64,000 nt of DNA. Origin: Flaccisagitta enflata (Eukaryota). The translations under genes and the position numbers were made by a program. The stretch spans positions 45,136,001 through 45,200,000 of the forward strand of contig OZ231126.1 in assembly GCA_965153355.1 (NCBI GenBank). Direction: 5' to 3'. Under the pieces are notes generated by a model. It had not been told where the DNA came from, searched no databases, and saw nothing but the letters and a program-made list of their open reading frames with translations. Below are positions 7,101 through 41,677 of this stretch, in pieces; within the stretch, counting starts at the first letter, position 1, and each line of letters begins with the position of its first letter.

Positions 7101-7788
7101 AGACCGACAGACGGACGGACAGACGGACAGACGGACAGACGGACGGACGGACGGACGGACGGATGGACGGATGGACGGACGGACGGACGAACGGATGGAC
7201 GGACGGACGGACGGACGGACGGACGGACGGACGGACGGACGGACGGACGGACGGACGGACGGACGGACGGATGGACGGACGGACGGACGGACGGATGGAC
7301 GGACGGACGGACGGACGGAGAGATGGACGGACGGATAGATGGGCGGACAAAGCGGGCTGTAGAGTCGCGTGCACGCGACTAAAAAACAGTTCTGAATCTG
7401 TTTCATGGTTCCCTGATATTGTTATGCCAAATGACCAAATAATCTAAATGTTCGGTTGGTCGGTTAATCGGTCCCTTTTTGGGCAGCGGCACACACAGCT
7501 TTCTTTTCTTCTTCTTCTTCTTCTTCTTCATCTTCTTCTTCTTCTTCTTCTTCTTCTTCTTCTTCTTCCTCTTTTTCTTTTTCTTTTTCTTCTTCTTCTT
7601 CTTCTTCTTCTTCTTCTTCTTCTTCTTCTTCTTCTTCTTCTTCTTCTACACTTAACAAAGATGCAAATTATATTCTTTGCCTAAGTGGGGTTCTTTCGGT
7701 TATTCATTCTGGCATTGCTCCATTTGTTCTTCATTGACCGTCAGGGTGTTCAGCCAAAATAGTCAAAGGCCCTTTTGACCAAAAAACG

Positions 7789-9646: not shown

Positions 9647-9731
<85 letters not shown>

Positions 9732-11006
9732 CAGAGGCACACACACATGCACACATATGAACAAAAAGAATTTTGAAAAACGGGTGTCTTATACAGACAC
9801 ATAACTTGCTTGCTATTCTTTTTTCTTTTCCTTTTTTTTTCCTTTCAGATTTTTCTTCTTTTTCTTCAAAGACTTTTTTCTTCCCCTTCCTTTCCTTCCT
9901 GCTGGCCCAGCTTGCTTCCTACGAGCACCGCTCGCCTGCTCGGCCACTTTCTGCAGCCCTGAGTGACCAAAGCTTACGACTTTTTTCCTCACGGCGACAG
10001 CCGGCATTACTGGTAGATTGTGACAGGGTCCCCAATGAAATCAGCTCCAAAGTTACCAAATTAGACCCCTCATTTTCAAAAGCCTGTCTTTTCTGAAGAA
10101 AACCAGTTTCAGACATACGGATTGCGCCATTGCATAGCTTTTGAAAAGCCCTTCAATTTCGTCATGAATTTCAATCAGATTGAATAAAGGCAACATGGCA
10201 TGTAACATATGAAATGTAATGATAAAAATCAAAATTCGAGAACTATCGCCATCCTTTCAGGTGTAATTATTTGTTACTTAGGTCGTTTTAAACAATTGAA
10301 ACTGGTAAAATTAAAGATAAAATACATCCTCATATGTATAAACTGATTCAAATTTGACCCAATCAGTGTATGAAGCAGATAAAAGCTGACCAAATACTGT
10401 CTTTTTGAAGTTTTTTCAATAATTGTGTTACAGATGATAAACTATAGTGTTGACTAAGGAGGCCCTCTCACAGGTTCATCCTCGTAGTAGGTCCTAACAG
10501 GTCTCACAGAATTAGGCGGAAAAAGCTGATAACTCATGCTAAAAAGCATTGAAAATGTAAATATAATCAGTCCAAAAGATATATTATATGTTTATTTTAT
10601 TTACATACTGCAAAAAAAATGACAAAAAGAAAAAAAGAACGGCTACCTCCTTATAAATGTAATTATTGAAATTAGTTGAAGGTTGCCAAATCTGAGATTG
10701 ACACTTTTTGCTTATTGGTGATGCTCGACTTCACCATCGTTTCCTCAGCTGTTCACAACTTTCGCAGCCTTCTTTCTGTGTAACACACTCTCCTACACCA
10801 ATCCACTGCATTATGTGAGACCTGTTAGGACTACACAATTCAAGCAATCGGACGCAAAAAGATCCGGCGGCCTTGTAGAAATCCATGAACCGCGCTATTT
10901 CTCGGAAACAACTACAACCACAACCATTCCTCACCCTTTTAACGAAATACAAAGGTAAGGTATATTATCTGGTCCTAGTAATACTATTCATCTTTTCACG
11001 TGACAG

Positions 11007-11441: not shown

Positions 11442-11715
11442 TTTTACCGGAAGCGCAAGAATTGATTCATATCAATCTCAAGAAATTATAGATTTGTATC
11501 TGTTGGAGACGGAATTCAGTTATAGACGGGTCCTCAACTCACGTATGGGTGGGCAAAGAAAGCGACATTGCAGGCCACTACATTTATACATGACAATTAT
11601 TCACAAGGATGCGTAGCAACCGTAGCAAGGAACGATAATCATTTGGTGAACAGACACATAGAAAAGAAAAACCGCTTTTGCCGCATCCACTGCCGCATCT
11701 GCTTCCATTTTGCAG

Positions 11716-11817
11716 TTTAAATACTAGTAGCTATCCTACCCACCAAATTGGAAGCGATCATCCCTACAGTACTTCCATGAAGTTTATAGGCAATGACCGA
11801 AATGCAAAAAAGAGCCC
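11716..11817 (+). CDS. DEG/ENaC channel, probable internal exon
   Basis: TTTTGCAG acceptor, open frame LNTSSYPTHQIG...KKSP, GTAAAT donor in phase with the 11896 acceptor. A further exon near 11450-11620 is needed for phase but could not be placed. Confidence 0.5.
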
Positions 11818-11895
11818 GTAAATGCTTGAAAAAGACACTTCAACTAAGATTGATAGCATTTCTCCTGCTAAAAAACTTTACCCTCTTTTAACCAG

Positions 11896-12781
11896 TAAAG
11901 TAATGATACTTGATCCAGGAACGCGTCTTAAGCCCAAGTGCCTCTTCCAGTTTGCCGCTTATCGAAGTCCTCCAGAATTCCTCACTCTGTGCGCCTACCA
12001 ACATTTCATGGGCATTAATTCGAGTTTCTCTAGTGACAGAAAACTGAATGTTGAATTTGGAAATGACTTGGATGGAGTTCTGATGTGGATATATCTTCAA
12101 AGCTCATGTGGCAGCCCATTTTTGGGGAAATACGTCGCGACCGTAACACCGAAAGACGTTTGGGTGACTATCATTATTCGTGGTAAGGAATTGATCATCG
12201 ATCGACAAGGAGAGCAAACCAGATATCCCGGACAGCTGCCCGCTTTATTTCGTTCAGCTCCCCCAGAAGATTACAGTAAGGACGTTTGTATCCATCTTTG
12301 TCAAAACCGTATCAATGTTGATTGGGAATCACATCGTGATTACAACTTGAGTACTTGCGAGATTGACCAACATGCTGATGTTAGCTTGACCAATCATGAA
12401 ATATGTTCAGCTGATGAGTGTCACGATGAAACAGCGTTTGCATCCATTGATTATTTCATGGAGTATCTGGCAGCTGATAGAACGAATCTTAATAAAACAA
12501 AACTACAGATTGCTGGTACGATGGGCAACAATTCCGATGTTTGGGTCAAGTCAGACTGCAGTTTTTACGCAGTGAAAAATATCAACATTGAGAAAAAGTT
12601 TGAAGAGTTTTTGGCGGAAATTGGGGGGAACTTTGGACTGCTTGCTGGGGCGTCTGTTTTGACCCTTATTGAAATTGGGGAATTTGTTTTTAAAATTTCC
12701 AAAATATTTTTTTTCCATGAACGTAAGTCAGTGAAGGCTAGCGTTCCGCAAACTCAACAGATTGGAGAACACATAGTCTAA
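11896..12781 (+). CDS. DEG/ENaC channel, terminal exon (extracellular domain and TM2)
   Basis: FLAEIGGNFGLLAGASVLTLIEIGEF is the TM2/GAS selectivity-filter motif; Cys-containing extracellular region; stop TAA; AATAAA near 12839. Confidence 0.9.
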
Positions 12782-13166
12782 CTTGAGTAAGCATATTACA
12801 CGGACTTTTATCCCAGGTCATAAAGGTCGGTTGAGTGGAATAAAGTGGCGTTTGGTGATTTTGCCCCACCAGAGGGGGGGGGGTGTTATTTGATGGATTG
12901 CGTGGGTAGGTTGAGTGGTGTACACTGTACAGTATGTTTTTTTTTAACTTTCTTGTAGCATTTACTTTGCAGATTTGTTACCTAAAAAAGAATAATACAT
13001 CACTTCTAAAATATAGGCCCTCGCGTCATTTGAAACAATTGAATCAAAGGGAAAATTTTTCAGATCATCAATTTCAAAGAGTCATCTTACATTTATGCTG
13101 TTCCTCCATGGATCAAGCCAAACATTCAGGAATGGTCTTGAATAAAGGGAAATTGATCATGGATAT

Positions 13167-13718
13167 TGTAAAGAACCGTAGAAAATACTGTCTCGTACCG
13201 TCGTTAGGATCTTGCCGTCCACGCAACTTCCGATTGAAGACGCCACTTCCGGTATGAATACGCCATCGCTACGCCAATCACGCCGACAACGTCACTTCCG
13301 GTGGCGCTGGTCCCATTGTCAGTCTGTGGATGCTATCTCTAATCACTAGGTAAGAAAGTGTATTTAAACTATTATGTACAGAAAGAGAAAGAAGGAGAAA
13401 CAGAAGAGAGGGGGGGGAAGGATTGGTTATTGTCTACCAACTAACTAGCTAGTGTGTATCATCAATAACTACCTCAATCAATTCAATCAATTGTCAACAA
13501 ATGCAGCCAAGCACACTCACCACAGGTTCCACTGTAATCCCCAAAGTGCTTCCAGGTTGAATTGCTTGTTAAAATACACTGACCAACCGAAAGAAAGAAT
13601 GCATCCAGATAATCAAATATATCATCACAAGCAAATGAATAGCAACGCCAACGAAAGGACAACGAAACAGATCGCAGCACAAAGGCGCCAAATGCCAAAA
13701 CATCAACGATATTCCACA
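13167..13718 (-). repeat. 3' LTR of the BEL/Pao element
   Basis: Direct repeat of 22785-23336; preceded on the sense strand by a G-rich polypurine tract. Confidence 0.97.
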
Positions 13719-13731
13719 GTCCCCCCGTTGG
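13719..13731 (-). other. Polypurine tract (plus-strand primer site)
   Basis: Sense CCAACGGGGGGAC directly abuts the TG of the 3' LTR. Confidence 0.8.
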
Positions 13732-13851
13732 AATCCCATTCCAACCTAGTCACACCGTCCTGCCTCAAAAAAAAAACGAGGAGAGACCAAGGATGAAGTC
13801 ACCTGAAATGAGCGGACGAACGGACGGCGAAAGGAGCGGCGCGAGACGCGC

Positions 13852-14781
13852 CTAGCGACGCGAAGGCGCCGCGCCACGCTGTCCTTGTGGCTGCGGAGCG
13901 CGCTGCGCGTCAGGATCCGCGGCAGGCGGCTGCTGATACCGCTGCTGCTGCTGATGCCCTTGACGCTGACCACCGCGTCCGTGGTGTCGAGGGCGAGACG
14001 CTGACGGCGAGGAGGTGGCAACAGGCGCCATCGCTTCAGTCGCCGCAGTTCGCCCGAGAAGACAAACCCCGCGAAAAAAGTCTTCAAAACTCGACGGGGG
14101 GGTTGAAAAAGACGCGTTAGGGAGGAAGGGGGTTGCCTCCCTGTAACGCCTTGACAAGTCTTCGTCATCAAGAGTTTGATTTGACCGAAATCCGCCGTGG
14201 TCGCGGCGCCAGCCTCCACGGCCGCGGCCATTACCACGGCCAGTTCCACGGCCAGCTTGCCGATGTTGTCTTTGAGGGTTGGGGGACGGCGCCGGTGGGG
14301 GGATGGATGAATCTGCCGCCGAAGCGGCAGCCATCGCCTTCCCCCCCTCCGAATGCTTCCCCTTTCCTTTCTTTGAAGAGGATGAAGAAGACGACGTCGG
14401 TGGGTCGGCCTTTGGGGTGACCACAGGAACTCCCCCGGCAGCACCCTCCTCCTCCTGCTTCTTCTTCTTCTTGGAGGGCTTTTCCCTCTCCTTCCTTTCC
14501 TTCGCCTTTTCCTTCATCTCCTTTTCCAACTCCTCCATCTCCCGCTGCATCCCTTCCAACTTCTCCTTCTTCTCCCGCTCAACCTCCGCCTTCACCTCTT
14601 CCATCTGCTTCCTCTTCTCCTCAATCTGCTCCTTCAACCCATCTCTCTCCTCCTTATATTCCAGCTGCCTCTTCCTCCTATTCTCCCTAAACTTCATGTT
14701 CTTCTTCTTCTGCCTCTCCTGCTTCTTCGTCCACCCCCTCTGCTCCCCTTCCTCCTCATCCTCAACTCCTCCCCCCCCTGC
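13852..14781 (-). CDS. Extra ORF3b: Lys/Glu coiled coil, RG-rich and Gln-rich regions
   Basis: Same frame as ORF3a, separated only by TAG at 14784-14782; first ATG 14697; contains EKRKQMEEVKAEVEREKKEK, GRGTGRGNGRGRGGW and QQQQRYQQP. Confidence 0.65.
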   Translation of the reverse strand, partial: AGGGGVEDEEEGEQRGWTKKQERQKKKNMKFRENRRKRQLEYKEERDGLKEQIEEKRKQMEEVKAEVEREKKEKLEGMQREMEELEKEMKEKAKERKEREKPSKKKKKQEEEGAAGGVPVVTPKADPPTSSSSSSSKKGKGKHSEGGKAMAAASAADSSIPPPAPSPNPQRQHRQAGRGTGRGNGRGRGGWRRDHGGFRSNQTLDDEDLSRRYREATPFLPNASFSTPPSSFEDFFRGVCLLGRTAATEAMAPVATSSPSASRPRHHGRGGQRQGHQQQQRYQQPPAADPDAQRAPQPQGQRGAAPSRR

Positions 14782-15919
14782 CTACGCACCACCACGTCTT
14801 CCGCTTCCAAGTCCGGCTCCGGCCCACATTCGCCACTGCCCTGCACGCCACTCAGGAAGGAGAGGGCACCCCCACAATTGATTGGGCATCCTCACTGCCC
14901 TCTCTGGCCCTGCGTCACCCCTCGAATTCCACACCATCTCTCTCTTCCTCCACCTATCCATCTCCGCCGTCAACAAACCGTCCAACTCCGCGATCCTCAG
15001 CTTCCCCTTCCTCCTCTTCGCGTCCTCCGTCGCCACCGCCTCCTTAAACCTCACCACCACCTCATGCTCCTCCATCGCCGAGTCGCCGCGCAAACACGGC
15101 CACCGCGGCGGCTCCCTCGTCTCCGGCTCCCACAGCCCGTACGCCGTACACACCCCCGGCTTCTTCGCAAACCTCCGCATCGCCATCTTCACCTGCCCCT
15201 GACTACACCACAACAACACCGACAGGTGACGCAGGCGTGAGCCCATCGCATGGCCGATCTTGTAAATGTCGAAGCCATCTTCGACTAGGACCCAGTCCAT
15301 TTCGCCATCGACCTTAATCAGTTGGGCCACGTAAACGTTGGGGTAGCGCTTCTGACCGACATGGAAGAGCACCAGGACCGCCAAATTGGAGGCCATGATG
15401 TCCCTCTGCGCCTCGGTCGAGAATTGCCACTCATCGAATTCTTCCGTCAATGCGTTGGAACCTCTACACATCCGGAAGGATCCCACCATGTCCGCTACTT
15501 CCGTCCTGCTCTTCTTCTTCCTCTCCCCATCCTTCTCCACCGCCACCGCCACCTGCGGACCCCCTGGCAACAACAACTCGTCATTCCTATACTCCACCGG
15601 CACCTCCTCCGACTCCACCCTCCTCGGCTCCATCGCCTCGTCCTCCATCTGCACCAAATCAAACTCATATCCTCCTCCCAGCCCCTCCTCACACTCCTCC
15701 CCGGTCACACTAACATGGTGGGATGACATTCTCTCCGGATGCGGCGTCCACAACGATTGACAATTGTAAAAGAGATTGTCTTTTAGCGTGTTGACAATTT
15801 TTAGTGAATCTTTCTTAAAATCCTTCAAGCAAAGGGGCAAAAATACAAGTGCAAATTCAAAGAAATATGGCAAAAACATGGGGACTGGGGCGGGTTGGGG
15901 GGGCACGAGGGAAACACAC
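14782..15919 (-). CDS. Extra ORF3a of the retrotransposon, unknown function
   Basis: Sense ORF of about 380 codons after the integrase stop. Start is either a splice acceptor at 15920/15919 or an internal ATG at 15729. Acidic N-terminal part, then a globular-looking mixed domain. Confidence 0.7.
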
Positions 15920-15984
15920 CTAAGGAAAAAGGGGCAAAGATAACAAGATATCAAAGACCAATTGAAGCAATATACTCGGCATAG

Positions 15985-17138
15985 TCACGCCGATAAACGC
16001 GCCGGGTCAAGTTCCAATCGGACTACTTTGCTCCTATCACGTGTGAATGTCTTCCCATTCGCCGTCCTCACCACCACAGTCCGTACGACGTCGCCTCCAT
16101 CGACTTCCGTGATGACGCCGGTGCGCCAATCTCCCCGTCGACACTGATCATCCACCATGAGAACGACGTCGTCAATTTCCAAATCTTTCTCCACCCGGCG
16201 CCATTTTGGTCGCGCCTGCAAGGCCGAGACATAGTCTCTTTTCCACCTTCTCCAAAACGCATCAGCAATTGCGCGTGATTGGCGCCAAGTATATCGAAGC
16301 GCTTCTGCATCTGGAGGCGAGGGGGGCACAAGGTCGCAACCGGAAGACGCGTATACTCCAGGGCAAAGAAAGTCTATTGGCCGCAAAGCCTGGATCCCCG
16401 GCTCATCACCTACATAGGTAATCGGCCGCGAATTCATGGCCAGCTCTGCCTGGGCCAATACTGTTGCAAAAGTCTCGATGTGGAGATTGTCTTGGTTCAG
16501 TACGAACGCCAAATGTCTTTTTGCAGATTGAACCAAGCGCTCCCATACTCCACCTCGATGTGGTGCAACAGGCGGGTTAAATGTCCATTGTATGCCCGTC
16601 AGCCTTAATTCGGGTTTCGCGGACAAATTCCATGCCTCCATTTCCGCGCGCAGTTCTTTGTCAGACGCGGTGAAGTTGGTGCCATTGTCCGAATACAAAT
16701 GGCGAATCGCTGGGCGGCGAGCTTGAAACCGCAAGAGGGCGCCGACGAAGCAAGAGGCGCTCATGGATCTCAATATCTCGAAATGCACCGCGCGGCACGC
16801 AAGGCAGGTAAAAAGCGCGACGTACACTTTGTGAGATGCTCTCCCGGCGATTTTGCAAGAAGCAGGTCCAAAAACATCCACCCCCGTATTCCCAAAGGGC
16901 AAACACTTTTTAGTCCTCACTTCCGGTAGTGGTGCCATCAGCTGACTTTCTGGGCGTTTAAATTGTTTTGACACTCCACACACGCGCCACGACGCGCGTC
17001 CACAGACCGGCGTCCTTTCGTGATCCAAAAGCGGCGTCGCGATTCACCCAGTACTTGTTCCACGCCGGCGTGCAGCTGACTGAAGTGGATTGACCGGATC
17101 AAGCATGCGTCGGCCTCGCCATCGTGTAGGAGTATCAT
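15985..17138 (-). CDS. pol: Pol: integrase (zinc finger plus DDE core), frameshifted
   Basis: HFSQLHAGV...RFWI...CVEC in 17138-16938, then PFGNTGVDVFGP, FTCLACRAVHFE, SDNGTNF, PPVAPHRGGVWERLV in 17028-15985. Confidence 0.93.
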
Positions 17139-20004
17139 TTTTTAGCGTCAAGTCCAATTCCTCGTCACGCTGGAGTCGTCCTCTGCATCGTAGCAAACCG
17201 GCGTCGTCAACGAAGGGGCATAACGCCGCCAGAGGCGATTTTGCGGCGACTTTTTTAGCTCCAACCGGATCACATTGTTGCAGGGATTTAATTTCCGCGT
17301 GGAAGGCTTGGGATTGAATGGCGCTGACGATCAATTTTTCGGCGTCGGCCAATTCGACGCCGGTGGGCGCCCCAACTTTGTCGGCGTCGTTGTATAACGC
17401 CCGGCGTCGATTGCGGATGATGCACATCATGATCGTGCGTTTCAGCAGTGCGATGCGCCTCAATTTTCCCGTCCACGTCGCCACCTTCTCGCTGACGCGA
17501 ATCACCCACGATTGAGGCGGCGTTCTTTTCGGCGTCGCCGTCGTCGCGAGGATGTGAGCGGGAAATGGGCGTGTCACGATCTGCTTTTCCGGCCATTCGT
17601 CTTCGCCTCGCCATAGATAATCCGGGCCGTTGTGGAATTTGCCCCAATTTGGATCTTGGGCGAGCATCCCTTTGGACGAGTAGTCGGCTGGGTTGAGGTG
17701 GGTTGGTACCCACCTCCACTCCTCCACCTTCGTAAGCGCCTGAATTTCAGAGAGACGATTTGCAAAGTAAACCTTGAACCTTGTTTCAGTGTCATTCAAT
17801 TGCTTTATTACACATTCTGAATCGGTCCAATTTACATAACCATCATAACTCCCTGTTTCTTCAATAATGGTGGCGCGCATTCTGGCTGCGAGGCGTGCCG
17901 CTTGAAGCTCCAAGCGTGGCGTCGACTCCATGTGACCCGCTTCCACATCCTTCAGTGGGACGACGTGCGACTTGGAGCAGACGATGGACACGTGGATTTC
18001 GCCATTTGGACCCTCGTAGCGGACGTAGTACACGGCCCCATACGCCCGTCCACTCGCATCCGAATACCCGTGGAGGACCTTCCTGCCGTCTTGCGTTTCT
18101 GGCGTCGCCGTCCATCTCGTTATGCGGAATGACTCCAAGAACCTGAAGCTTGCTTGCCATTCCACAAACTCGTTGAGGGATACGGTTGGAATGTCTTTGC
18201 TATCCCAACTTTCGAAGACGCGTAGTACTTTTTGCAGAATTAGCCTTGCCCAAATTACGAATGGCTCCAAAAAGCCCAGCGGGTCAAATATTGACGCTAT
18301 CAGTTTGAGCATTTGTCTTTTGGTCTGCACATTCAATTCGGCCTCCGATTTATCTGGCAAGAAGGAAAAAGCATCGGCAGAAAACGAGTATCTAAGGCCT
18401 AACAATTTCGTCGTGTCATCAGTGGCGCCGGATACATCCATTGGCGCCGCCGGCGCCGGATCCGTTGTATCGCCTTCAAGGACTTCCGGGTGGCTTGATC
18501 TCCATTTGCACAGATTCATGCCGGCGTCCTCAAGGGCGGCCGTGATGCCCACACGAAAGTCTTTCGCCACTTTGGTATTGCGCAGTGATTTTATTAGATC
18601 ATCAATGTACATGTTCCTCATCACTGCTTGCACCACGAGGGGGCCGTACTCAGCCGAATGCTGTTCCACGTGGTGTTGCAGAGTGAAGATCGCTACACAA
18701 TTTGATGATTTTGCACCGAAGACGTGGCCAAGGAACTCATTCAAGTCGATTTCTTCTATCTTTTCATCGCGAAACCAGTAGTAACGGAAGAGTCCCGCGT
18801 CGTCCTCGGTGACATAGATTTCATGGAAGTAGTCCTTAATGTCCGCGCCCACGGCGACAGGGCCTTCACACCGGAAGCGCATCAATACGCCTCTGATATC
18901 GTTGGCAAGCTGTGGCCCGTCCAGGAGCTGGTCGTTAAGGCTTGATCCACCCACTGCTGCTTTGCAATCGTGGCAGATGCGGACTTGCCCGGGCTTGCCG
19001 GGCTTGTCCGCCACATGGATTGGAATTGTCCATCTAGGTCGATCTGGTGGCATGTTGGCGTGCACATTTGGATCTATTTTCCTCACGCGCCCTTTTTCCC
19101 AGAATTTGGCCATAGTTTCGAACGTTATTCGGCGCCTCTCTGGGTCCCGCATTAATTGTTTTTTCAGGCGAAATAAGCGGTCTAGGGCCATCGTTGGGGA
19201 ATCCAAATTGTTTAGTGCATCGCAAGTTGCTTGCCTTCCACCTTTATGAAGGACTGGAGTCCGGTAGTGTTCCGTTTTCGGATCCCACCTAATGCCTTCC
19301 TTCATTTGGCGGATGGCAAACTTATCACTGAGAGACATTTCTCGCTTATTTTCGTCCACTTTTTCAAATTCACCGGCATTTATTCTTTTTATGGTTTTTG
19401 CCAAATCTGAATCAATGCTGTGAAAGGAAGCAAAATTGCAAACAAAATATCGCGAGTCAGTATTGTTTCTGGGGCCGATCAAGCCGGCGCCAAGTGGCGT
19501 GGAAATTCCCATGGGTAATCCCTCGGCGCCTTTGAATGTCTCTCCGCCGATCCAGATTCGAGCGTGTTCTGCGCCAATTATTACGCCGATAGAGCATCCG
19601 TCGTCGCCATCCGGAAACGCAGGAAATTCCAGGTCGACGAGATGCTCCATCCCGGCGGCATCCTCAGCGCGTGGTGGTCTGTCGTCCTTCGATGCAATTA
19701 TCTCCCCAAAGATGGCGTTGTTGAGAGTGATGCTGTAGCCGTTGGTGCCTTCAATCACCACATCTGCCACCTCCCTCTCTCCTTCCACCATCTTCTCAAG
19801 GGTGGTTATCGTCATCGTCGTTTTCCTCCCACTTAGTTTTAGTTTCTTACATAAGTCCTTCGACACGACGTGTCGGTTGGCGCCGCCATCCATCAACGCA
19901 AAAGTCTTAACTTTTCTTTCGCCGTTCGTTATGTACAGCGGCAAAATCAACCTCCACGCTCCGTCGTCGCCGCCAACTTTGAAGACGGAGATGCGGCGCC
20001 TCAT
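17044..20004 (-). CDS. pol: Pol: aspartic protease, reverse transcriptase, RNase H
   Basis: TFALMDGGA (protease), GADIKDYFHEI and MYIDD (RT), LHGYSDAS, TPRLELQAA, WTDS, NPADYSSKG (Pao RNase H). Confidence 0.95.
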   Translation of the reverse strand: MRRRISVFKVGGDDGAWRLILPLYITNGERKVKTFALMDGGANRHVVSKDLCKKLKLSGRKTTMTITTLEKMVEGEREVADVVIEGTNGYSITLNNAIFGEIIASKDDRPPRAEDAAGMEHLVDLEFPAFPDGDDGCSIGVIIGAEHARIWIGGETFKGAEGLPMGISTPLGAGLIGPRNNTDSRYFVCNFASFHSIDSDLAKTIKRINAGEFEKVDENKREMSLSDKFAIRQMKEGIRWDPKTEHYRTPVLHKGGRQATCDALNNLDSPTMALDRLFRLKKQLMRDPERRRITFETMAKFWEKGRVRKIDPNVHANMPPDRPRWTIPIHVADKPGKPGQVRICHDCKAAVGGSSLNDQLLDGPQLANDIRGVLMRFRCEGPVAVGADIKDYFHEIYVTEDDAGLFRYYWFRDEKIEEIDLNEFLGHVFGAKSSNCVAIFTLQHHVEQHSAEYGPLVVQAVMRNMYIDDLIKSLRNTKVAKDFRVGITAALEDAGMNLCKWRSSHPEVLEGDTTDPAPAAPMDVSGATDDTTKLLGLRYSFSADAFSFLPDKSEAELNVQTKRQMLKLIASIFDPLGFLEPFVIWARLILQKVLRVFESWDSKDIPTVSLNEFVEWQASFRFLESFRITRWTATPETQDGRKVLHGYSDASGRAYGAVYYVRYEGPNGEIHVSIVCSKSHVVPLKDVEAGHMESTPRLELQAARLAARMRATIIEETGSYDGYVNWTDSECVIKQLNDTETRFKVYFANRLSEIQALTKVEEWRWVPTHLNPADYSSKGMLAQDPNWGKFHNGPDYLWRGEDEWPEKQIVTRPFPAHILATTATPKRTPPQSWVIRVSEKVATWTGKLRRIALLKRTIMMCIIRNRRRALYNDADKVGAPTGVELADAEKLIVSAIQSQAFHAEIKSLQQCDPVGAKKVAAKSPLAALCPFVDDAGLLRCRGRLQRDEELDLTLKNDTPTRWRGRRMLDPVNPLQSAARRRGTSTG

Positions 20005-20044
20005 GTCACGCAGTTTCGGATCCTTTATCGCGGCGTTTTTGTTA

Positions 20045-22689
20045 TCATCTGTTTGTTTCCCGCCGGGTTAGGTTCCGGATGCGCTGAAGGTGGTGGAAGC
20101 CGTTGCACTTGTCGCATGTGATCGTCGACGGACACGCCTTGGCGAGATGGCCTCCTTCAAGGCATCTGAAGCAGATGCCCAAGTTTTTGTTGAACTTCCG
20201 GCGGTCCGACGCGTTCATCTCGCTGTAAGTGGGGCAACTCGCTAGACCGTGTTTTCCGTCGCAACGAGGACAGAGGCCCGGCGTCGTTTTTGAAGCCGGC
20301 GTCAGCAACGCGTCCTTCTTTGCGGCGGCGTTGGCAGTCGTCGCGGAATCTTGGCCGATGCAGCGGGCTTGTTTTGATTGTTGTTGCGATGGTATCCTGA
20401 CAACATTTCAGAAATGGTTTGCTCTTCATCAATGAAATCAAGAAAGTCAGCAAATTTCAAATCTGAACCATTTTTCTTCCTATACCTCACAACTTTCTTT
20501 GCCAACTTATCTTTTAGGAAGGGAAGCTTCTTCTCGACGATTGTTTTGACCACCAACTTGTTCTCGAAGTGTCCGCCTTTTTTGTCTCGGTTGCAAACGA
20601 ATGGAGGGCGCTCATCAACTTGGGCGTAGAAATTGAGCATTCGTTGTGATCTTTTGGTGATCTTTTCCCTGCAACACCCGTCAAAAACATCTCAACGCGG
20701 TTCTTGGCGCATCCCGAACTAATCACATCTCCCAGCGCCTCGTCGGCGGCGGCCTCCGACTTCTTCAGCGTCTCCGCCTCGATCAGCTTGAAGGCCGATC
20801 CCTCAAACCAATGCTGCAACTCGTTCAGCATTTGCTTATTGGATACGCCCGGGATCTCCATCGCCTCGTTGAAGATCTTCCTTATCTTTTCAAAGTCCAT
20901 TCTTTTGGTCGTGTTTCCGGAGAATTTTGGCGGGTCTAGCTTCCTTTAGCTGGTGGATGGCCGTTTGCTTTAGCGCCGCCTCCAACTGTTGTCGCTGCAG
21001 TCGCAAAATGCTCGTCATTAACGTGTCTGAGACATTTGAAGCATAGCTGTTCGCACTGCTGGAAGCTATCGACGGCGCCTTCGAACGTGTTGACGATGAT
21101 CTTGACGCGATTGACAAGCGGCTGGGGCTTTTCACTTCCTGTGGATGTACCGTCGCCGATGTATCTGTCTTTGCCCCTGGCTTCTCGTCTTTCGTCTTGA
21201 TCTCTCTCTTTGTTCTTTCCTGTTCTCCTGATTCCATTTTCTTTGGCTTCACGTCACCCAATTTACGGAAAGGCATTGTCGGTGGTTTTTTGACCTCCGT
21301 CTTTGCCTCTTTTTCCCTTTGGGCCTTCGGCGTAAAAAGCTTCTTTTCGACTTTCGCAGTGGATCGGTAGCGATCTCTCTGGGATTGTGGCGTCTTCACC
21401 TCCTTCTTGGCCGTCGACGTCGGTCTCGACGTCACTCCATTCACCCACGCGCTCGTCAATGCATCCGGAGTTTCGCCACCGAATGCTGCACCTGCGGCGG
21501 TCATCTCCAATCCGGCGCCAGCATCCCTCGACTTTTCTCCCTCATCGACGGCGCCGCTTGCCGTTGACTGTTCGTCTTCGTTCGCCGCTATCAAGTCCTG
21601 CAGCTTCGCCGCGTTTTTGTCAATGTTGTCCATTTCTTTCTCATGGAGGGTTTTGTCGAGGTCCTTTTGCCTTTGTATGTCTTGGATAATGCTTTGATGA
21701 TACGCAATATCCGCGTCCGCTTGCGCGTCGTTGGATTTTATCCGTTCCTTCTCGGCTTCCCTTTTTCTCTGTCTGTCTTTCTCCACCTGCTGTGACATCA
21801 CCGTCGACGTTTTGCTCCTCTGGGATCCCTTTTTTGACGACCTCGTCGAGTGTGTCGTTGACCTGGCATTTTCTGCGTCGTCCTCGCGTTCGGGATCGGC
21901 ACGTGGAGCAACGGAGGCGGTCACACTTTGAGGTCTTTCGGCCTCTTTGTCTTTTTTGTTGGCCTCTGCCGCCTTCCGCCGTTCATCTTCAGCTAGTTGA
22001 AAACCGGGTGGAAGTGGTCGAGTCTTTGGCCGAGTGGAATCATCTGTTGTAAGCGCTGCCGCCGCCGCGGGGGGTGTTGCTGGAGGAGGAGGAGGAGGAG
22101 GATGTGACGGGTTTTGGCGTCTTTCTGGCGTCTGACTGCCGACTACGTTTCCAAGCGCTTTCTTTCCGGCAGTCACAGTCAATGATACTTTCTTTCTTAG
22201 TGAGTTCAACATCGACGCCGGTGGCGCCGTCTCCTTCGTCACTTCCGGTCTCTCCCTCCTTTCCTTTTCGCCTTCACCCTTCCCGCTCGTCCTGCTCTCG
22301 TGCAGCAGCGGCAATTCCCCTATCGCCCCGACGTCCTCCGCCGGGTCGTCAACAGTCTCGTCGACGTCCCCTGCCGATTGCGTCTTGAAGTGGGATTCGA
22401 GCGTTATTTTGTATCGAACCATGTCTTGCATCAATTGACCGGCCATTTCCCTGGCGTTAGGCTCGTCCTCAATTTTGCAGGCATTGTATTCGTCTAAACG
22501 CTTCTCGTAGAGGTCACAGAATGCGTCGCTTTTTAAGTTCAATTCGGTTTGCGCCTCTTCCGACGGTGTTTTTGTCGCGTGGTCGAGGGCAACCGTCATT
22601 GAATTAAAGCTTTTCTCCAATTCTCGCCTCACGTGTGCAACGATGCGCAGGTCCCATACCGTGGCTTCGATCGGTCTGATGTTCGCCAT
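20045..22689 (-). CDS. gag: BEL/Pao Gag region, split by frameshifts
   Basis: 599-aa ORF 22689-20890 continues through pieces 20900-20514, 20640-20302 and 20308-20045; ends in CPRCDGKHGLASC / CFRCLEGGHLAKAC / CDKCNGFHH knuckles typical of BEL/Pao. Confidence 0.88.
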
Positions 22690-22774
22690 GGTATCTGGTG
22701 TTACCTACGTGTTGTGCTCATGTATAGTAGGGGGAAATGATATAGGGTTAGCAATTTTTACCAGCGGCTTTGGT

Positions 22775-22784
22775 GTTTAAATAC
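22775..22784 (-). promoter_or_regulatory. Non-tRNA primer-binding site, candidate self-priming PBS
   Basis: Sense GTATTTAAAC directly after the 5' LTR, no TGG; exact reverse complement of LTR sense GTTTAAATAC at 22987-22978. Confidence 0.6.
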
Positions 22785-23336
22785 TGTAAAGAACCGTAGA
22801 AAATACTGTCTCGTACCGTCGTTAGGATCTTGCCGTCCACGCAACTTCCGATTGAAGACGCCACTTCCGGTATGAATACGCCATCGCTACGCCAATCACG
22901 CCGACAATGTCACTTCCGGTGGCGCTGGTCCCATCGTCAGTCTGTGGATGCTATCTCTAATCACTAGGTAAGAAAGTGTATTTAAACTATTATGTACAGA
23001 AAGAGAAAGAAGGAGAAACAGAAGAGAGGGGGGGGAAGGATTGGTTAATGTCTACCAACTAACTAGCTAGTGTGTATCATCAATAACTACCTCAATCAAT
23101 TCAATCAATTGTCAACAAATGCAGCCAAGCACACTCACCACAGGTTCCACTGTAATCCCCAAAGTGCTTCCAGGTTTAATTGCTTGTTAAAATACACTGA
23201 CCAACCGAAAGAAAGAATGCATCCAGATAATCAAATATATCATCACAAGCAAATTAATAGCAACGCCAACGAAAGGACAACGAAACAGATCGCAGCACAA
23301 AGGCGCCAAATGCCAAAACATCAACGATATTCCACA
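22785..23336 (-). repeat. 5' LTR of the BEL/Pao element
   Basis: Direct repeat of 13167-13718 with about 5 substitutions counted by eye; sense reads TGTGGAAT...CTTTACA. Confidence 0.97.
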
Positions 23337-23827
23337 GATATATTTAATGCTACTTTCTTGTAGCCGAGTTACCAATTTTCATGATAAGAAGAAAAGATAA
23401 GCATTTTTATCTAAGAATGCTCAAAAAAACTTTTTTTGGCACAAAATATCATTTATAACTAAACAATGTATTTAATCAAGTTGAGGGCAAATATCTTGTA
23501 AATCTATGCATCACCGCTTTTAGGATCAAAATCAGGATCAATGATATCAATTTGTGGTGATTTAAAGGATGTAAAAAAGGATATTCTTATAAAAACAAGG
23601 GGGGGGCAAGATGATGGCGCAATCACAGCCTTAGGATCCAAACTCTTTTTTTTTTTTACATTCAATATGATGAAAGTTCTGAAACTTTAAATCATTTTAG
23701 CAGTCCAATGTTTTATCTGAATGATTATACTTTTTTTTACGAGACATCATATTTTGTACTCAGGCCGGGGGTAATAATATTCTTCGCCGTTTTGAGGCTT
23801 AAATTCTCTTTGAGTGTTCTCATTTTT

Positions 23828-24142
23828 TTAGATGCGTCCGTCAGGAGCGCATCTCTATAAGAGGGTCTGTCCGTCCGTCGGTCCGTCGGTCCGTCGGTCC
23901 GTCGGTCCGTCCGTCGGTCCGTCCGTCGGTCGGTCGGTCGGTCCGTTACGCCTGTGCAAAAACCGCGTTTCTTGGCTGTTTTTGGCCACGGTGACATCCT
24001 ACACTGAAACAAATGATCAACCAACATGGTTTGAGAGTCCTTTCACCCGTCTGTTTGTCCATCTGTCTCTCCATACATATGTCAAATGATCAATACACGC
24101 TGAGACACAGCCCGGACGCATCGTTGTCCGGTCGGGCTTGTT
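23828..24142 (+). mobile_element. HINE-like element, AGATGCG...CGCATCT family
   Basis: 5' hairpin AGATGCGTCC...GCGCATCT, (GTCC/GTCG)n, 3' GGACGCATC, GCTTGTT end; relatives at about 30749-30971 and 45805-46021. Confidence 0.7.
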
Positions 24143-30589: not shown

Positions 30590-31447
30590 TAACAGAAATG
30601 TTTTACTCTTTTATTTGGCGCCAAGCAGCTCTACCATCATTGTAACTCGAATTGATGATTTTTCTATTTCTTTTTTCATGTACGAAAAATTCGAGTGGAT
30701 TTTTTTAGCATAAAATCAATGAGAAAATGTTTTATGATATCATATTCATAGTCGCGGACACGCAACTCTAAAAGAGGCTTGGCTCGTCCGTTGGTCCGTC
30801 CGTTGGTCCGTCGGTCTGTCGGTCCTGTGTCATCAAGTTGAAAAGTGGGAAAACGCGCATTTTTGATACTCTGTGTATGTTTGAGTGTTGGGGGTGGGTT
30901 GGGGTGTGGATGGGAGTTGGATACCCCTACCCATCCGTCCGCAACGATATTTTGACCCCGCGTCACTTGTTAAACATAAACAATGAAGGAATTGAAGGCC
31001 GACGAGTTCCGACTTGGTGTGGAATGTGAGGTGTATGGCTTTAGACAACATTGCTTCGTTAAAAAAAACATAAATCAGTACAGGGGGAGTGTAACCATAT
31101 ATACAAAAGCAGAAAATTGAAAATGGCAATAAAATGGGAAGGTTGGATGGTTGATTGTTTGAATTTTAACCCCCCCTCATTCAGTGACGAACACTCATAA
31201 AAACAAGAATGAGAGCAAGAGAGAGAGAGAGAGAGAGAGAGACATACAGACATTCAGACAGACAAAGAGAGAGAGACAGAGAGGCAGACTGACAGAAAGA
31301 TAGAGACGGAGATTGAGATAGAACCAACCAATTTACTGACCCAACAGACAGACGGACTGATAGAGGAACCAAAAGATAGACAGACTAACGGATGGACGAA
31401 CAGACTGACAGACAGTCAGACAGACATGTAATGATTCTAATGAACAA

Positions 31448-31559
<112 letters not shown>

Positions 31560-32009
31560 AGCAGCTGCTTTTCAATCTCCTTTGTCTTCTCCCCTTTTTG
31601 CTTAGCCCTTAGCTTGATGCGTCTTCAATCATCGTTGATCATCTACGCTGATGGTCGACTTTCACTTTTTTGATTTTCGAAATTTCTTTCCTGTCTTGTC
31701 AAAGTGGTCCAATTTTTACGGGATATATGTTCGCGCCGTTCATATTTCTCGATCCATTCGTGTATCGATTTGTCCGTTAGACTGTTGCACTTTTTTTTAC
31801 ATTCGTGCAGCGTCATTACCACTGCCACAGACACAAGTGTGTTTGTGTTGTGATAACGCGCATCATGGTTTCTGCCTTGCTAATCGAAATTCGAAATTGT
31901 TCTTAGTTTTAGAGACAACATGAGCTGACGATGTTTACAAAGAACGGTCAATTCACCTCACACTTCCCTTTTGTCCCCTTGTAACTCATTTCCCCTTCAT
32001 AGTTTTAAC

Positions 32010-32020
32010 AACAAACACAA

Positions 32021-32110
<90 letters not shown>

Positions 32111-32216
32111 CAACGAGAACGACAGCAGCGACGGCGATGGCGACGACGACGTTAACGGCAACGGCACGACGACAATCGGCGACGACGACGACGACGACGG
32201 CAGCAGCAACAACAGC

Positions 32217-32256
<40 letters not shown>

Positions 32257-32688
32257 GCAACAACAACAACAGCAACAACAGCAACAACAACAACAACAAC
32301 AACAACAACAGCAACAACAGCAAACAGCAGCGAGCGACAACGCATCGTCAACAGCAGCAGGAAGGCGGATACAGCAATCAGTCAGGACGGTTGGGCGAAG
32401 ACAGTAATGCGCAAACCGCTCAAATTCAAAATGTGACGGACCTACCGACCGACCGACCGACCGACACGGCAGGGTGTAGAGTCGCGTGTCGCGACTAACA
32501 ATGGCGACCGCGACAAGCGACAACGACAACAGCATCATCACGACAACGAAAATGACGACGACGACGACGACAACGAGAACGACAACAACGACGGCGATGG
32601 CGACGACGACGACAACGACAACGACAACGACAACGTCAACGACGACGACGACGACGACGACGACGACAGCAACAACAGCAACAACAAT

Positions 32689-32768
<80 letters not shown>

Positions 32769-32770
32769 CC
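32010..32770. repeat. (AAC)n/(GAC)n microsatellite block with an embedded HINE fragment
   Basis: Direct inspection; HINE part about 32370-32498. Confidence 0.85.
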
Positions 32771-35700
32771 GTTTGCCCAACCATTTCCGGTGTTTTTTGT
32801 TTTTGTTTTTGTTTTTTTTTTTTTTTTTTTTTTTTTTGCTTTTTGCCGTGCGCCCCAATATCAGGAAGCCGAACTCAACGATTCGACTCCATTTACTGGG
32901 ACTCAGCAAAAACAAAAGTGAAAGAAAAATAGAAACAAGGTCGGATACATGGCTGCCTAAGTTGGCAGGGGCAGTGATAAAAAAGCTTACCAAACATTTG
33001 GGCAGGACCAGTAATGCAAAATATGCCCATGAACGCCATAAAAGCTACGCGTCACCAACATACAGACTGACCGACCGACCAACCAACCAACCGACGGACA
33101 TAGGGGGTTATAGAGTGGTATGTACGCGACTGGAATCTTTTGCAGTCCTCTGCCAAATAATGGCGACGCGAGAAGTGCCGCTACTTGGAGGGCTTGAAAG
33201 CTTAGAAAATGAAGGGTGAAATGGTGTCTTGAAAAAGATTTAATGTCACAAAGATTTGTGGGTTTGGTCTTTTCTTAGTGGTCAAGATATCTAAATTAAA
33301 ATTCAATACCCATTTGAGAGAGTTTTATCCGGTCGTTTCCATGGCATTCTGCGCCTTGATCTCTTGCTCATGACCTCCAATACATTTAGGCATCTTACGT
33401 ACATCTTACGTACAGTACAGTTTCTAGTCTTTTCTCATTTTTAGTCTTTTCTGTAGAAGCACTGTTGTTCCAACCATCATAAAACAAAGGACGCCAAGTT
33501 ATATGGCCAATATGTTCGCCTCGGTGATAAAGAACACGCGAATAAACGTTTTGAATGAATGAATGAATGAATGAATGAATGAACGAACGAATGAATGAAT
33601 GAATGAATGAATGAATGAATGAATGAATGAATGAATGAATGAATGAATTAATGAATAAACGACTTAATGAAAATTAAATTGTACAGGCGTAGCGCAGTTT
33701 CAACGTTTGCGTGACAGGAAGTGCAACCAACCGACCGAACGACCAACCAATGGACGGACAATCATGACCTCTTTTAGAGGTGCGAAGACACATTCAAAAT
33801 GAAGTGTAACACTATGTCCGAGAAAGGATTCATAACGTCCTTAACTTGATGAGTAAAACTTGAATACTTTGAGGGTCTGATTTTTTTACTTTCGTTATTT
33901 ACGCCCCCAAAGTGTATAAACTTACAACTTACAAATATAGTTCTTAACATTGATCAGTTTCCTTTTTGGTGCCCCAACGCACCTTTATATCCGGTCGTGT
34001 CCGTCCATTGGTTGGTTGGTCGGTCGGTCGGTCGATTGGTCACATTTACGTTTGACGATCCACCAGAGGGACCTATAGGTCTGCTTCATTGATTTAATCA
34101 AGACGCATTTATTTAAATGTAAAAGTGACCTAGTGCGGCACGGTCCCTCGAAGGCGTCATTACAATGAAAATTCAGATATCCAGACCGAGAGGTGGTTCA
34201 ACGCTAATTAAAGAATGCAATCTTCAATATCAAGAATCACGGCCAGATTAATAAAGTTATTTATTGTGAGAACAAACCGCTGGGGTCTTACGGGTAAAAC
34301 AACATCCACCGTGAAGTTTGGACAATAATAAAGATTTGCTGAACTTAAATTGTCAGAGGGCAACCCGGTTGACTGTCAAGTAGCGTGATGTCTCGCAAAA
34401 CAATGAAAAAAATGTTTATATGATTACGGCCAAAGTAATTACATGATCGCCGTACAACTTACCCAGGATTTGTCCAAGGGTTGGATGGTTAATCATGCAA
34501 AATTTCAGAAAATTTCGTAGAATATTTTCATAGCTACACTTTTTTGAAATTTTTGGGCAGGTAGGCTGGTTTGGGTGGTTGTATTTACTTAAATTTCTTG
34601 AAACTTCACACATCAGTGGACAAGGTCATGTGATGTTACCATAAAAATATTCATGTCAATTGGTCAATTCGTTCATGAGATATAAGCTTTCAAAGTTTGG
34701 GTAAAAAAAGTCACGACAGATTCTGCCACTTAGGAAAAAAACAAGGCCGTATACACTCCCCCTAAGTCGCGGATGGGTGGGCAGGAGCACAATAGCAAAA
34801 AACACTCAAATTTTGTTTTCGTTACGGATGGACCGACCACCTGACCGACCAACCAACACGGCGAGTTCTAGAGTTGGGAGTCCGCGACTAAAAAATGCGT
34901 TCCGTTCTTAGACTGCGTATTTCACGCTCGAGCAATCATGAAATCATGAATAGCACTTCTTTAGATCACTACGTCTAAACTATAAGGAATATAAAAAAAA
35001 TGAAATGTACAGTGGAAAGCTTACATGCTAGGCTTTCTAACAATATGAAACTTGATAGTAATCTTAAAAAAAAAAGGAACGCGGTAACTATCTTTGGACC
35101 AACCGCCATAAAAAGTTGAATCGGAAAATTCCTCTAAACTGGCGAAGATGAGCGAAGGTTTAAATCTATCATGGTAATTGATCGTCAGGTTTGTGAAAAA
35201 AAGTAATCGGAACACGGTATTCATTAGAATGAGTCTGTTCAGAACATGGTGTGTCAAAACGAGTCTAACTGGAATAAGTTTGTTTTCCTAATGGCAACCG
35301 GGAAGGGAGACCCGAAACGGAAACCAAAATCCCCCTTGTGCAGGCCTGGCCAGAGGGGGGTCACCCCATCTGAGATAGGAAGCCCGGGCACCAATGGGAC
35401 CTGTGAGAGCCTATATGATACAAAAAAAAAAGAACAAAAAAAGAGAAAAAAGAAAGAAAGAAGGAAAAGAAGAAAAAGAAAAGAAAGAGAAAGAGAAAAA
35501 TCAAGAAAGAAAAAAAGAGGGAAATAAAAACAAGGCAGGATACACGGCTACCGAAGTTGCATGCGGGTGGGCAAGGGCCATATTTGAGGTCACTAGACCA
35601 TTTAGGCAGGAGTGGTGAGGTCCAAACATAAAAAAAGTAAAGTGTGACAAACAGACCGACCGACCAACCAACAAAGCAGGGTGTAGAGTCGCGTAGCACT

Positions 35701-35974: not shown

Positions 35975-37260
<1,286 letters not shown>

Positions 37261-39603: not shown

Positions 39604-39634
<31 letters not shown>

Positions 39635-41627: not shown

Positions 41628-41677
<50 letters not shown>

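What the first reader, a model, noticed from the sequence alone, without database searches (positions are those of the whole stretch)
22775..22990. BEL/Pao retrotransposon with an apparent self-priming (tRNA-independent) primer site
Seen: the 10 nt immediately after the 5' LTR (sense GTATTTAAAC, 22784-22775) do not begin with the TGG of a tRNA PBS. They are the exact reverse complement of sense GTTTAAATAC inside the LTR (22987-22978; 13369-13360 in the 3' LTR). That site sits in ATAGTT, resembling the TCAGTT/TTAGTT initiator and preceded by a pyrimidine tract, so the RNA would begin AGUUUAAAUAC at about 22988. The leader after the PBS can also pair imperfectly with the U5 end. Known: fission yeast Tf1 primes reverse transcription by annealing its first 11 nt to the PBS, followed by RNase H cleavage, whereas BEL/Pao elements are generally described as tRNA-primed. 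Inference: this lineage may have evolved self-priming independently. I cannot verify from here whether that has been reported.
Basis: partly seen in the sequence, partly recalled or inferred. Interest (0 to 1): 0.85.

Follow-up and report, generated by a model that had tools for sequence, protein, structure and literature searches.

The report
Possible self-priming BEL/Pao retrotransposon
A young BEL/Pao retrotransposon in a marine animal genome has no tRNA-type primer site; instead the ten bases right after its left repeat pair exactly with a site inside that repeat, so it may prime its own copying as yeast Tf1 does, but this is not yet shown.

Summary
A 10,170-bp BEL/Pao element lies on the minus strand. 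Its 552-bp LTRs are 99.1% identical, end in TG..CA and are flanked by a 5-bp duplication, ATATC. The 10 nt directly after the 5' LTR (22784-22775) are the exact reverse complement of LTR positions 350-359 (22987-22978). Chance is about 0.05% by shuffles and about 0.2% per position by real-sequence controls. It is about 0.5-1.2% under the published criterion for a self-primer (at least 10 bp, offset 0-5).

The first TGG lies 21 nt downstream, so priming by a tRNA 3' end is excluded. If the RNA starts at 22988 or 22987, the predicted fold pairs the two 10-mers (probability 0.67-0.74). A 168-nt hairpin (z -2.56) lies between them.

The decisive tests could not be run. No transcription start could be mapped. 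No DNA of relatives or host tRNAs was reachable. A rival promoter reading (TATA-like box, start near 22965) would leave the site out of the RNA. The claimed U5-leader pairing is no better than chance.

Five literature searches found no report of self-priming in BEL/Pao; the ICTV profile calls the family tRNA-primed. Verdict: a plausible, unproven Tf1-like self-primer, about 50% likely. If true, it is a new variant of a known mechanism.

The parts
22785..23336 (-). 5' LTR, 552 bp, TGTGG...TTTACA
   Evidence: Alignment of the two repeats; script count of 552 nt with 5 mismatches.
13167..13718 (-). 3' LTR, 552 bp
23337..23341 (-). Target-site duplication ATATC, upstream copy; the downstream copy is at 13162-13166
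   Evidence: Flanks printed; sequence.
22775..22784 (-). Candidate primer-binding site GTATTTAAAC, directly after the LTR; it does not start with TGG
22978..22987 (-). Candidate self-primer GTTTAAATAC (LTR positions 350-359), the exact reverse complement of the PBS; the 3' LTR copy is at 13360-13369
   Evidence: In-register pair probability 0.67-0.74 when the RNA starts at 22988 or 22987.
22808..22975 (-). 168-nt segment between the two 10-mers, predicted to form one long imperfect hairpin that brings them close together
   Evidence: MFE -58.1 kcal/mol, z -2.56, 3 of 200 shuffles fold at least as well. The same helix appears in every construct folded.
22969..23002 (-). AT-rich island (at least 80% A+T per 20 nt).
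   Evidence: Motif and A+T scan. What the motifs mean is recalled knowledge and was not tested.
13720..13726 (-). Polypurine tract GGGGGGA, one base before the 3' LTR
   Evidence: RNA-run contigs join this region to the LTR start (loose ends at 23337).
20890..22689 (-). gag ORF, 599 aa. It is truncated in this copy: relatives have about 900 aa, and the C-terminal part matches in other frames between 20927 and 20023
   Evidence: tblastn pieces.
15985..20004 (-). pol (Pao peptidase, RT/RNase H by homology, integrase), one frame, interrupted by an in-frame stop at 17046-17044
   Evidence: Pfam; a single tblastn match to P0001 over 19893-15988 at 89% identity; translation.
13852..15984 (-). About 2.1 kb between the integrase and the 3' LTR with two open frames (400 and 309 aa, stop to stop) that match no Pfam family

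Best explanation
This is a recently inserted, now defective copy of a very high-copy BEL/Pao (Belpaoviridae) LTR retrotransposon of a marine animal. Its lineage most likely starts reverse transcription by Tf1-like self-priming rather than with a tRNA.

Proposed mechanism (inferred, not shown):
1. The genomic RNA starts at or upstream of 22987.
2. The R-U5 region folds into a long hairpin (22975-22808). This brings GUUUAAAUAC (22987-22978) next to the site GUAUUUAAAC (22784-22775), and the two form a 10-bp duplex.
3. The element's RNase H cuts the RNA after C22978. The freed 3'-OH primes minus-strand strong-stop DNA through U5 up to the cut.
4. That DNA transfers to the identical sequence in the 3' LTR.
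5. Plus-strand synthesis starts from the GGGGGGA tract. It copies the primer and so rewrites the PBS to match the LTR site in every cycle.

Shown: the anatomy, the exact complement and its rarity, the absence of a tRNA-type site, and the predicted folds.
For: 1. Exact 10-nt complement anchored at offset 0: 10 of 20000 shuffles, and about 0.2% of real 10-mers.
2. No TGG until 21 nt after the LTR (leader). The LTR end is fixed by TG..CA and the 5-bp TSD. By the established retroviral replication scheme, the primer's 3' end must therefore pair at 22784-22782, and a CCA-ending tRNA cannot.
3. It meets the published self-primer criterion (PMC6317226). That paper predicts self-priming for two other superfamilies: Tf1/sushi/Tcn1 and the copia TAR lineage.
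4. With a 5' end at 22988 or 22987, both the MFE and the centroid structure pair the two 10-mers. Pair probability is 0.67-0.74.
5. The spacer forms a hairpin with z -2.56; 3 of 200 shuffles fold at least as well.
6. The family has clearly been active with this PBS. The LTRs are 99.1% identical. 844 contigs were laid in run X1. Contigs of other samples run LTR-PBS-leader, such as X2 record 23 and X16 record 9.
7. The perfect match in a young copy is what primer copying predicts.
Against: 1. The transcription start is unknown. ATAGTT matches the initiator motif at only 4 of 6 places, and nothing fits a downstream promoter element (read).
2. TACATAAT at 22996-22989 is TATA-like, and one X1 contig reads it as a better TATA (loose end at 23001). 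Its first T lies 31 nt before the A of cTAGTg at 22965. That start would leave the site in U3, outside the 5' end of the RNA.
3. A consensus TCAGT lies at 23200. If the RNA starts at 23000, 23030 or 23198, the pair probability falls to 0.31, 0.17 and 0.14.
4. The duplex is short and AU-rich: -7.6 kcal/mol at 37 C.
5. There is no AATAAA downstream of the site, only the variant AATACA.
6. The whole 249-nt fold is not unusual: z -1.29, and 23 of 200 shuffles fold at least as well.
7. A U5-leader stem like that of Tf1 or retroviruses is at chance level.
8. There is no comparative evidence. Variant tables from reads show no change in either 10-mer, but with 79 variant places in 1101 nt and 39 of them hidden, that is uninformative.
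9. The finding was selected from a very large scan, so a 0.2-1.2% chance event cannot be dismissed.
Confidence: 0.5

Rival explanations
1. The element is primed by a non-canonical host RNA, such as a tRNA half cut in the anticodon arm (as described for copia-type elements) or another small RNA whose 3' end reads ...GUUUAAAUAC. The LTR complement is then a coincidence.
For: Half-tRNA priming is an established third primer class (PMC6317226 passage). A chance complement occurs for about 0.2% of 10-mers. One X2 contig keeps the LTR end, the PBS and 15 more nt (to 22760) while the following leader has diverged (loose end at 22760). That would fit a longer site of up to about 25 nt.
Against: It needs a 0.2-1.2% coincidence on top. 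An 80% A+T primer end is unlike cytosolic tRNA stems (recalled, not tested). No tRNA or other Rfam family was found in the window, though the host genome was not available.
Confidence: 0.27
2. The LTR 10-mer is part of the core promoter and poly(A) island: a TATA-like box at 22996-22989, AATACA at 22982-22977, a start near 22965 and a very short R. It lies in U3. Its match to the PBS either has another role (pairing of the 3' U3 with the 5' PBS region to bring the RNA ends together for strand transfer, or dimer contacts through the palindromic UUUAAA core) or has none. The primer remains unknown.
For: This is the only AT-rich island in the 3' 350 nt of the LTR. The TATA-like box lies 31 nt before cTAGTg (read). 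A variant contig has a stronger TATA. LTRs with a TATA box and poly(A) signal close together and a very short R are described (PMC3601003 passages).
Against: TACATAAT is a poor TATA box. No function of this kind is known for such a match. It leaves the lack of any recognisable primer site unexplained.
Confidence: 0.15
3. The site after the LTR is a decayed or deleted PBS of a dead copy and says nothing about priming.
For: This copy is defective: gag frameshifts and an in-frame stop in pol.
Against: The LTRs are 99.1% identical and the TSD is intact. Contigs from other samples carry the same LTR-PBS-leader junction with few differences: X2 record 23 has 2 differences in 100 nt, and X16 record 9 has 12 in 313 nt, of which none of the 10 listed falls in the PBS.
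Confidence: 0.05

Closest known systems
Tf1/Tf2 of Schizosaccharomyces pombe and Tj1 of S. japonicus (Ty3/gypsy, Tf1/sushi group): self-primed reverse transcription
   Same: The PBS just after the 5' LTR is complementary to a short stretch inside the 5' LTR instead of to a tRNA. [quoted passage not shown] Tj1 was assigned the mechanism from the same kind of complementarity (PMC4600332 passages).
   Different: This element belongs to a different superfamily (Pao peptidase, DUF5641). It has 10 bp rather than 11. The transcript start is not mapped. A U5-leader stem is not supported. There are no experiments.
[quoted passage not shown]
   Same: They were assigned from sequence alone by the same rule, which this element meets: at least 10 bp of complement in the 5' LTR to a region starting 0-5 bp after the LTR (PMC6317226). 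They show that self-priming has been proposed in two of the three LTR-retrotransposon superfamilies.
   Different: They have plant hosts and belong to other superfamilies. There the prediction holds across many elements of a lineage; here it rests on one copy.
Canonical BEL/Pao elements (Belpaoviridae, genus Semotivirus), such as Tas and Achilles
   Same: Pao-type peptidase, integrase with DUF5641, TG..CA LTRs, a 5-bp TSD, a metazoan host, and a length within the 4.2-10 kb range given (PMC8742986 passage).
   Different: They are described as primed by a host tRNA, with an 18-nt site for tRNA-Arg or tRNA-Gly (PMC8742986). Achilles has a site for tRNA-Tyr (PMC4580426 passage). This element has no such site.
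Half-tRNA priming (copia-type; 1/2 tRNA-Met and 1/2 tRNA-Ile lineages)
   Same: The PBS does not start with TGG, and the primer is produced by cleavage of a longer RNA (PMC6317226 passage).
   Different: No tRNA match could be tested. That mechanism does not predict a complement inside the element's own LTR.

Membership tests
BEL/Pao (Belpaoviridae) | Pao-type aspartic peptidase (Peptidase_A17) in pol | tested here: met
   PF05380, E 1.5e-32, 113.2 bits against a cut-off of 22.3.
BEL/Pao (Belpaoviridae) | Integrase downstream of RT/RNase H, with the BEL/Pao-typical C-terminal DUF5641 | tested here: met
   rve (weak, 21.5 bits, below its cut-off) and DUF5641 (E 9.9e-21) in the 15985-16938 frame. 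Relatives of about 1300 aa carry PF05380, PF17921 and PF18701 in one protein.
BEL/Pao (Belpaoviridae) | LTRs ending TG..CA with a short target duplication | tested here: met
   TGTGG...TTTACA, with a 5-bp ATATC on both sides.
BEL/Pao (Belpaoviridae) | PBS complementary to the 3' end of a host tRNA (as the family is described) | tested here: not met
   There is no TGG within 21 nt of the LTR end. This is a descriptive feature of the family, not a classifying one, so the protein-based membership stands.
BEL/Pao (Belpaoviridae) | Metazoan host | tested here: inconclusive
   A neighbouring open frame matches the amiloride-sensitive sodium channel family (ASC, E 1.1e-05, 25.1 bits against a cut-off of 23.6). 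Holder runs are one coded organism and marine metagenomes. The host was not identified.
Self-primed LTR retrotransposons (mechanistic class, Tf1-like) | PBS next to the 5' LTR complementary to at least 10 nt inside the 5' LTR | tested here: met
   Exact 10 nt at offset 0. Chance is 0.05-0.2% per position.
Self-primed LTR retrotransposons (mechanistic class, Tf1-like) | The complementary stretch is at the 5' end of the transcript, or at least inside it | not testable with these tools
   All runs that could be laid are assembled contigs, which cannot show RNA starts. The contig breaks at 22962/22963 are explained by a variant bubble: a 61-nt contig spans 22932-22992, and a DNA run breaks at the same place. 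Motifs allow starts at 23198, 22988 or 22965.
Self-primed LTR retrotransposons (mechanistic class, Tf1-like) | RNA structure that holds the primer on the PBS | tested here: inconclusive
   The duplex is present in the MFE and centroid structures, and the spacer hairpin has z -2.56. But the whole fold has z -1.29, and the U5-leader stem is at chance.
Self-primed LTR retrotransposons (mechanistic class, Tf1-like) | RNase H cleavage at the end of the duplex, with strong-stop DNA carrying the element's own RNA | not testable with these tools
   Needs experiments.
Self-primed LTR retrotransposons (mechanistic class, Tf1-like) | Complementarity kept by compensating changes in relatives | not testable with these tools
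   No DNA of relatives was found in viral contigs, metagenome contigs or genome contigs. The window holds only this copy.
Tf1/sushi group (phylogenetic family) | Ty3/gypsy-type pol related to Tf1 | tested here: not met
   pol is BEL/Pao. Any likeness to Tf1 is in mechanism only.

The most novel reading that the evidence does not exclude
A whole lineage of BEL/Pao retrotransposons, very abundant in a marine planktonic animal, has replaced tRNA priming with Tf1-like self-priming. This would be the first case in the third LTR-retrotransposon superfamily, and an independent origin of the mechanism.
Probability: 0.5. Interest if true: 0.65.

Novelty: new variant of a known kind. Interest (0 to 1): 0.5.

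Why it matters
Self-priming is demonstrated only in the Tf1 group. Elsewhere it is predicted for some gypsy and copia lineages. BEL/Pao is described as tRNA-primed (ICTV profile, PMC8742986). A self-priming BEL/Pao lineage would show that escape from host tRNA primers arose independently in all three superfamilies. It would also warn that annotation pipelines that require a tRNA-type PBS miss such elements. And it would offer a very high-copy, apparently recently active family in which the idea can be tested by comparing copies.

Tried and rejected
- Whole genome: none is held.
- DNA of relatives: all eight scans found nothing. These were single pol and a pol alignment in viral contigs; a gag alignment in viral contigs; gag and pol alignments in metagenome contigs; a gag alignment in genome contigs; and a pattern of LTR end, 10 free bases and leader in genome contigs and viral contigs.
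- Protein relatives exist (15 for pol; 5 for gag), but only as proteins from assemblies whose DNA I could not fetch.
- Window: no second copy or solo LTR. All 3 blastn rows lie inside the element. The fourth GTATTTAAAC at 11715-11724 has no element context.
- Reads: I first read the RNA-contig ends at 22961/22963 as a possible start or poly(A) site, then rejected that. A 61-nt contig (twice the usual 31-letter assembly word minus one; the word length is recalled, not stated in the output) spans 22932-22992. DNA run X2 also breaks at 22964. This is a variant bubble.
- Reads: the absence of listed variants in the two 10-mers is uninformative, because 40 rows are shown and 39 are hidden over 1101 nt.
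- Reads: depth in the 3' 220 nt of the LTR is 2-4 times that of the 5' part in X2 and X17. I treat this only as a sign that more subfamilies share that part.
- U5-leader stem: at chance.
- Rfam: only three sub-threshold hits with no bearing, and none at gathering score in the whole window. No tRNA in the window.
- Earlier findings of this scan: nothing relevant.
- Papers not held: the original Tf1 papers and the 1997 list of self-primed elements. What I say about them comes from passages in later papers. Supplements (for example the per-element PBS tables of PMC6317226) were not seen.

Full report
**Anatomy**

The finding lies in a complete LTR retrotransposon on the minus strand, 10,170 bp from 23336 to 13167.
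- The two LTRs are 552 bp each (23336-22785 and 13718-13167). They differ at 5 positions (99.1% identity), start TGTGG and end TTTACA.
- A 5-bp target duplication, ATATC, flanks the element.
- A GGGGGGA tract lies one base before the 3' LTR.
- Between the LTRs lie gag (599 aa here) and pol. pol carries a Pao peptidase (PF05380, E 1.5e-32), a weak rve match and DUF5641.
- Relatives in public assemblies have gag of about 900 aa and pol of about 1300 aa in one piece.
- This copy is broken. The C-terminal third of gag matches in other frames, and pol has one in-frame stop at 17046-17044.
- The BEL/Pao assignment is therefore sound, and the copy is young but defective.
- A neighbouring open frame matches a DEG/ENaC channel family. 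Together with the BEL/Pao identity, this fits an animal host.

**The observation**

The 10 nt after the 5' LTR, GTATTTAAAC (22784-22775), are the exact reverse complement of GTTTAAATAC at 22987-22978, which is LTR positions 350-359. The same 10-mer lies at 13369-13360 in the 3' LTR. The duplex is exactly 10 bp, with A.A mismatches on both sides.

How rare is this?
- Shuffles of the LTR gave such an anchored complement in 10 of 20000 trials, and in 27 of 5000 when offsets 0-5 were allowed.
- Real sequence is a stricter control. 21 of 9057 10-mers inside the element, 200 of 107364 elsewhere in the window, and 54 of 22919 AT-rich ones have an exact complement in the LTR.
- So the chance is about 0.2% at one position and about 1.2% for offsets 0-5.
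- That is unlikely for one test. It is not negligible for a feature picked out of a very large scan.

**Why a tRNA 3' end cannot be the primer**

The 3' LTR ends at TTTACA, directly followed by the target duplication. So U5 ends at 22785. In the standard scheme of LTR-element replication (established knowledge), the primer's 3' end pairs with the first bases after U5. These read GTA, not TGG. The first TGG is 21 nt further on. A primer ending in CCA is therefore excluded by the sequence. An internal tRNA fragment or another RNA is not excluded. I could not test that, because no host genome is held and the window has no tRNA.

**Folding**

- With a 5' end at 22988, both the minimum-energy and the centroid structures pair the two 10-mers.
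- The in-register pair probability is 0.67 for a start at 22988 and 0.74 for 22987. It falls to 0.31, 0.17 and 0.14 for starts at 23000, 23030 and 23198. In those cases the site pairs instead with GUAUUU in U5.
- The 168 nt between the 10-mers form one long hairpin: -58.1 kcal/mol, z -2.56, with 3 of 200 shuffles folding at least as well. This puts the two 10-mers close together.
- Against this, the whole 249-nt fold is not exceptional: z -1.29, and 23 of 200 shuffles fold at least as well.
- The duplex alone is worth only -7.6 kcal/mol at 37 C.

**Where does the RNA start?**

This is the weak point. The LTR has three AT-rich islands.
- The candidate self-primer lies in the third island (23002-22969).
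It has no TATA box or downstream element in register.
- Just upstream lies TACATAAT (22996-22989). One contig of run X1 reads it as a better TATA box (loose end at 23001). Its first T is 31 nt before the A of cTAGTg at 22965. A start there would put the site in U3, outside the 5' end of the RNA.
- AATACA (22982-22977) could then be a poly(A) signal with a very short R. That layout is described for other LTRs (PMC3601003, passages).
- A consensus TCAGT also lies far upstream, at 23200.

The self-priming model does not strictly need a start at 22988. Any start at or upstream of 22987, with a poly(A) site downstream of 22978, would allow cleavage after C22978 to leave a paired primer. A start downstream of the site would refute the model.

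**Public reads**

- Part or all of the stretch is held by 20 of the 24 listed runs, from 11 studies. They are one coded organism and marine metagenomes; 4 are RNA libraries.
- Four runs were laid, and all four are assembled contigs.
- Run X1 gave 844 pieces with very high word depth, so the family is highly repeated.
- RNA-library contigs join the polypurine region to the LTR start and run to 22963. Another runs from 22961 through U5, the PBS and the leader into gag.
- The gap at 22962 is a variant bubble, not an RNA end. A 61-nt contig spans exactly 22932-22992, and DNA run X2 breaks at 22964.
- Contigs from other samples carry the same LTR-PBS-leader junction. X2 record 23 has 2 differences in 100 nt. 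X16 record 9 has 12 in 313 nt, and none of the 10 listed falls in the PBS. So this PBS is the family's own and not a private lesion.
- The lack of listed variants in the two 10-mers has no weight, because 79 variant places in 1101 nt were found and 39 are hidden.

**Relatives**

I could not obtain DNA of any relative. Eight scans of three collections found nothing, and the window has only this copy.

**Literature**

- The ICTV profile of Belpaoviridae states that replication is primed by a host tRNA, with an 18-nt site for tRNA-Arg or tRNA-Gly (PMC8742986, passages).
- A BEL/Pao element of the olive fly has a tRNA-Tyr site (PMC4580426, passage).
- The main BEL/Pao survey never mentions PBS, tRNA or priming (PMC3118150, term search with 0 hits).
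- In Tf1, the first 11 bases pair with the PBS and RNase H cuts between bases 11 and 12 (PMC7175516, passage). Tj1 was assigned the mechanism from complementarity alone (PMC4600332, passages).
- A plant survey predicts self-priming for the Tcn1 and TAR lineages. Its rule is at least 10 bp of complement in the 5' LTR to a region starting 0-5 bp after it (PMC6317226, passages). The present element meets that rule.
- Five full-text searches found no paper that reports self-priming in BEL/Pao. Subscription journals and supplements were not searched.

**Verdict**

- For it: an exact, well-placed and rare complement; exclusion of a CCA-ending primer; a fold that fits; and a prolific family that must prime somehow.
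- Against it: an unmapped start with a credible rival promoter reading; a short AU-rich duplex; no comparative or experimental support; and selection from a large scan.
- If true, it is a new variant of a known mechanism, in a superfamily where it has not been described.

Noticed in passing
window 22918-22912, 22869-22863, 22850-22844 (minus strand): Three direct copies of CGGAAGT, an ETS-type binding motif by recall, lie inside the LTR between the candidate self-primer and the PBS. They form much of the long hairpin. They could be enhancer sites, which would bear on where the promoter lies.
   Followed up: partly
window 22809-22801 and 22787-22779 (minus strand): A 9-nt direct repeat, ACAGTATTT, occurs once in U5 and once across the LTR end and the PBS. 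The U5 copy competes with the PBS for pairing to the LTR site when the RNA is given a longer 5' end.
   Followed up: partly
window 13852-15984 (minus strand): About 2.1 kb between the integrase and the 3' LTR holds two open frames (400 and 309 aa, stop to stop) with no Pfam match. The second is rich in Lys/Glu and low-complexity runs. [quoted passage not shown]
   Followed up: partly
proteins P0017 and P0020: Two partial gag relatives (55-57% identical) are filed by a public source under a bacterial metagenome-assembled genome. As relatives of an animal retrotransposon gag, they are most likely contaminating eukaryotic contigs in that bin.
   Followed up: no
window 22781-23002 versus 23003-23336: Summed word depth over the 3' 220 nt of the LTR is about 2-4 times that of the 5' part in runs X2 and X17. 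The change lies near 23002, just upstream of the candidate self-primer. More subfamilies seem to share the R-U5 side than the U3 side.
   Followed up: partly
window 7054-7385, 9566-9779, 31161-32818, 36083-39820, 41596-43471, 47861-48850: Many long arrays of 8-12 nt and 9-15 nt period repeats fill much of the window. A 21-nt period array lies at 44674-45051.
   Followed up: no
window 11822-12781 (plus strand): An open frame matches the C-terminal part of the amiloride-sensitive sodium channel family (ASC, E 1.1e-05, just above the curated cut-off). It is probably an exon of a host gene about 400 bp from the element's 3' end.
   Followed up: no
window 12001-24000 versus the rest: The element has about 49-53% G+C, against about 35-43% in the surrounding host DNA.
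   Followed up: no
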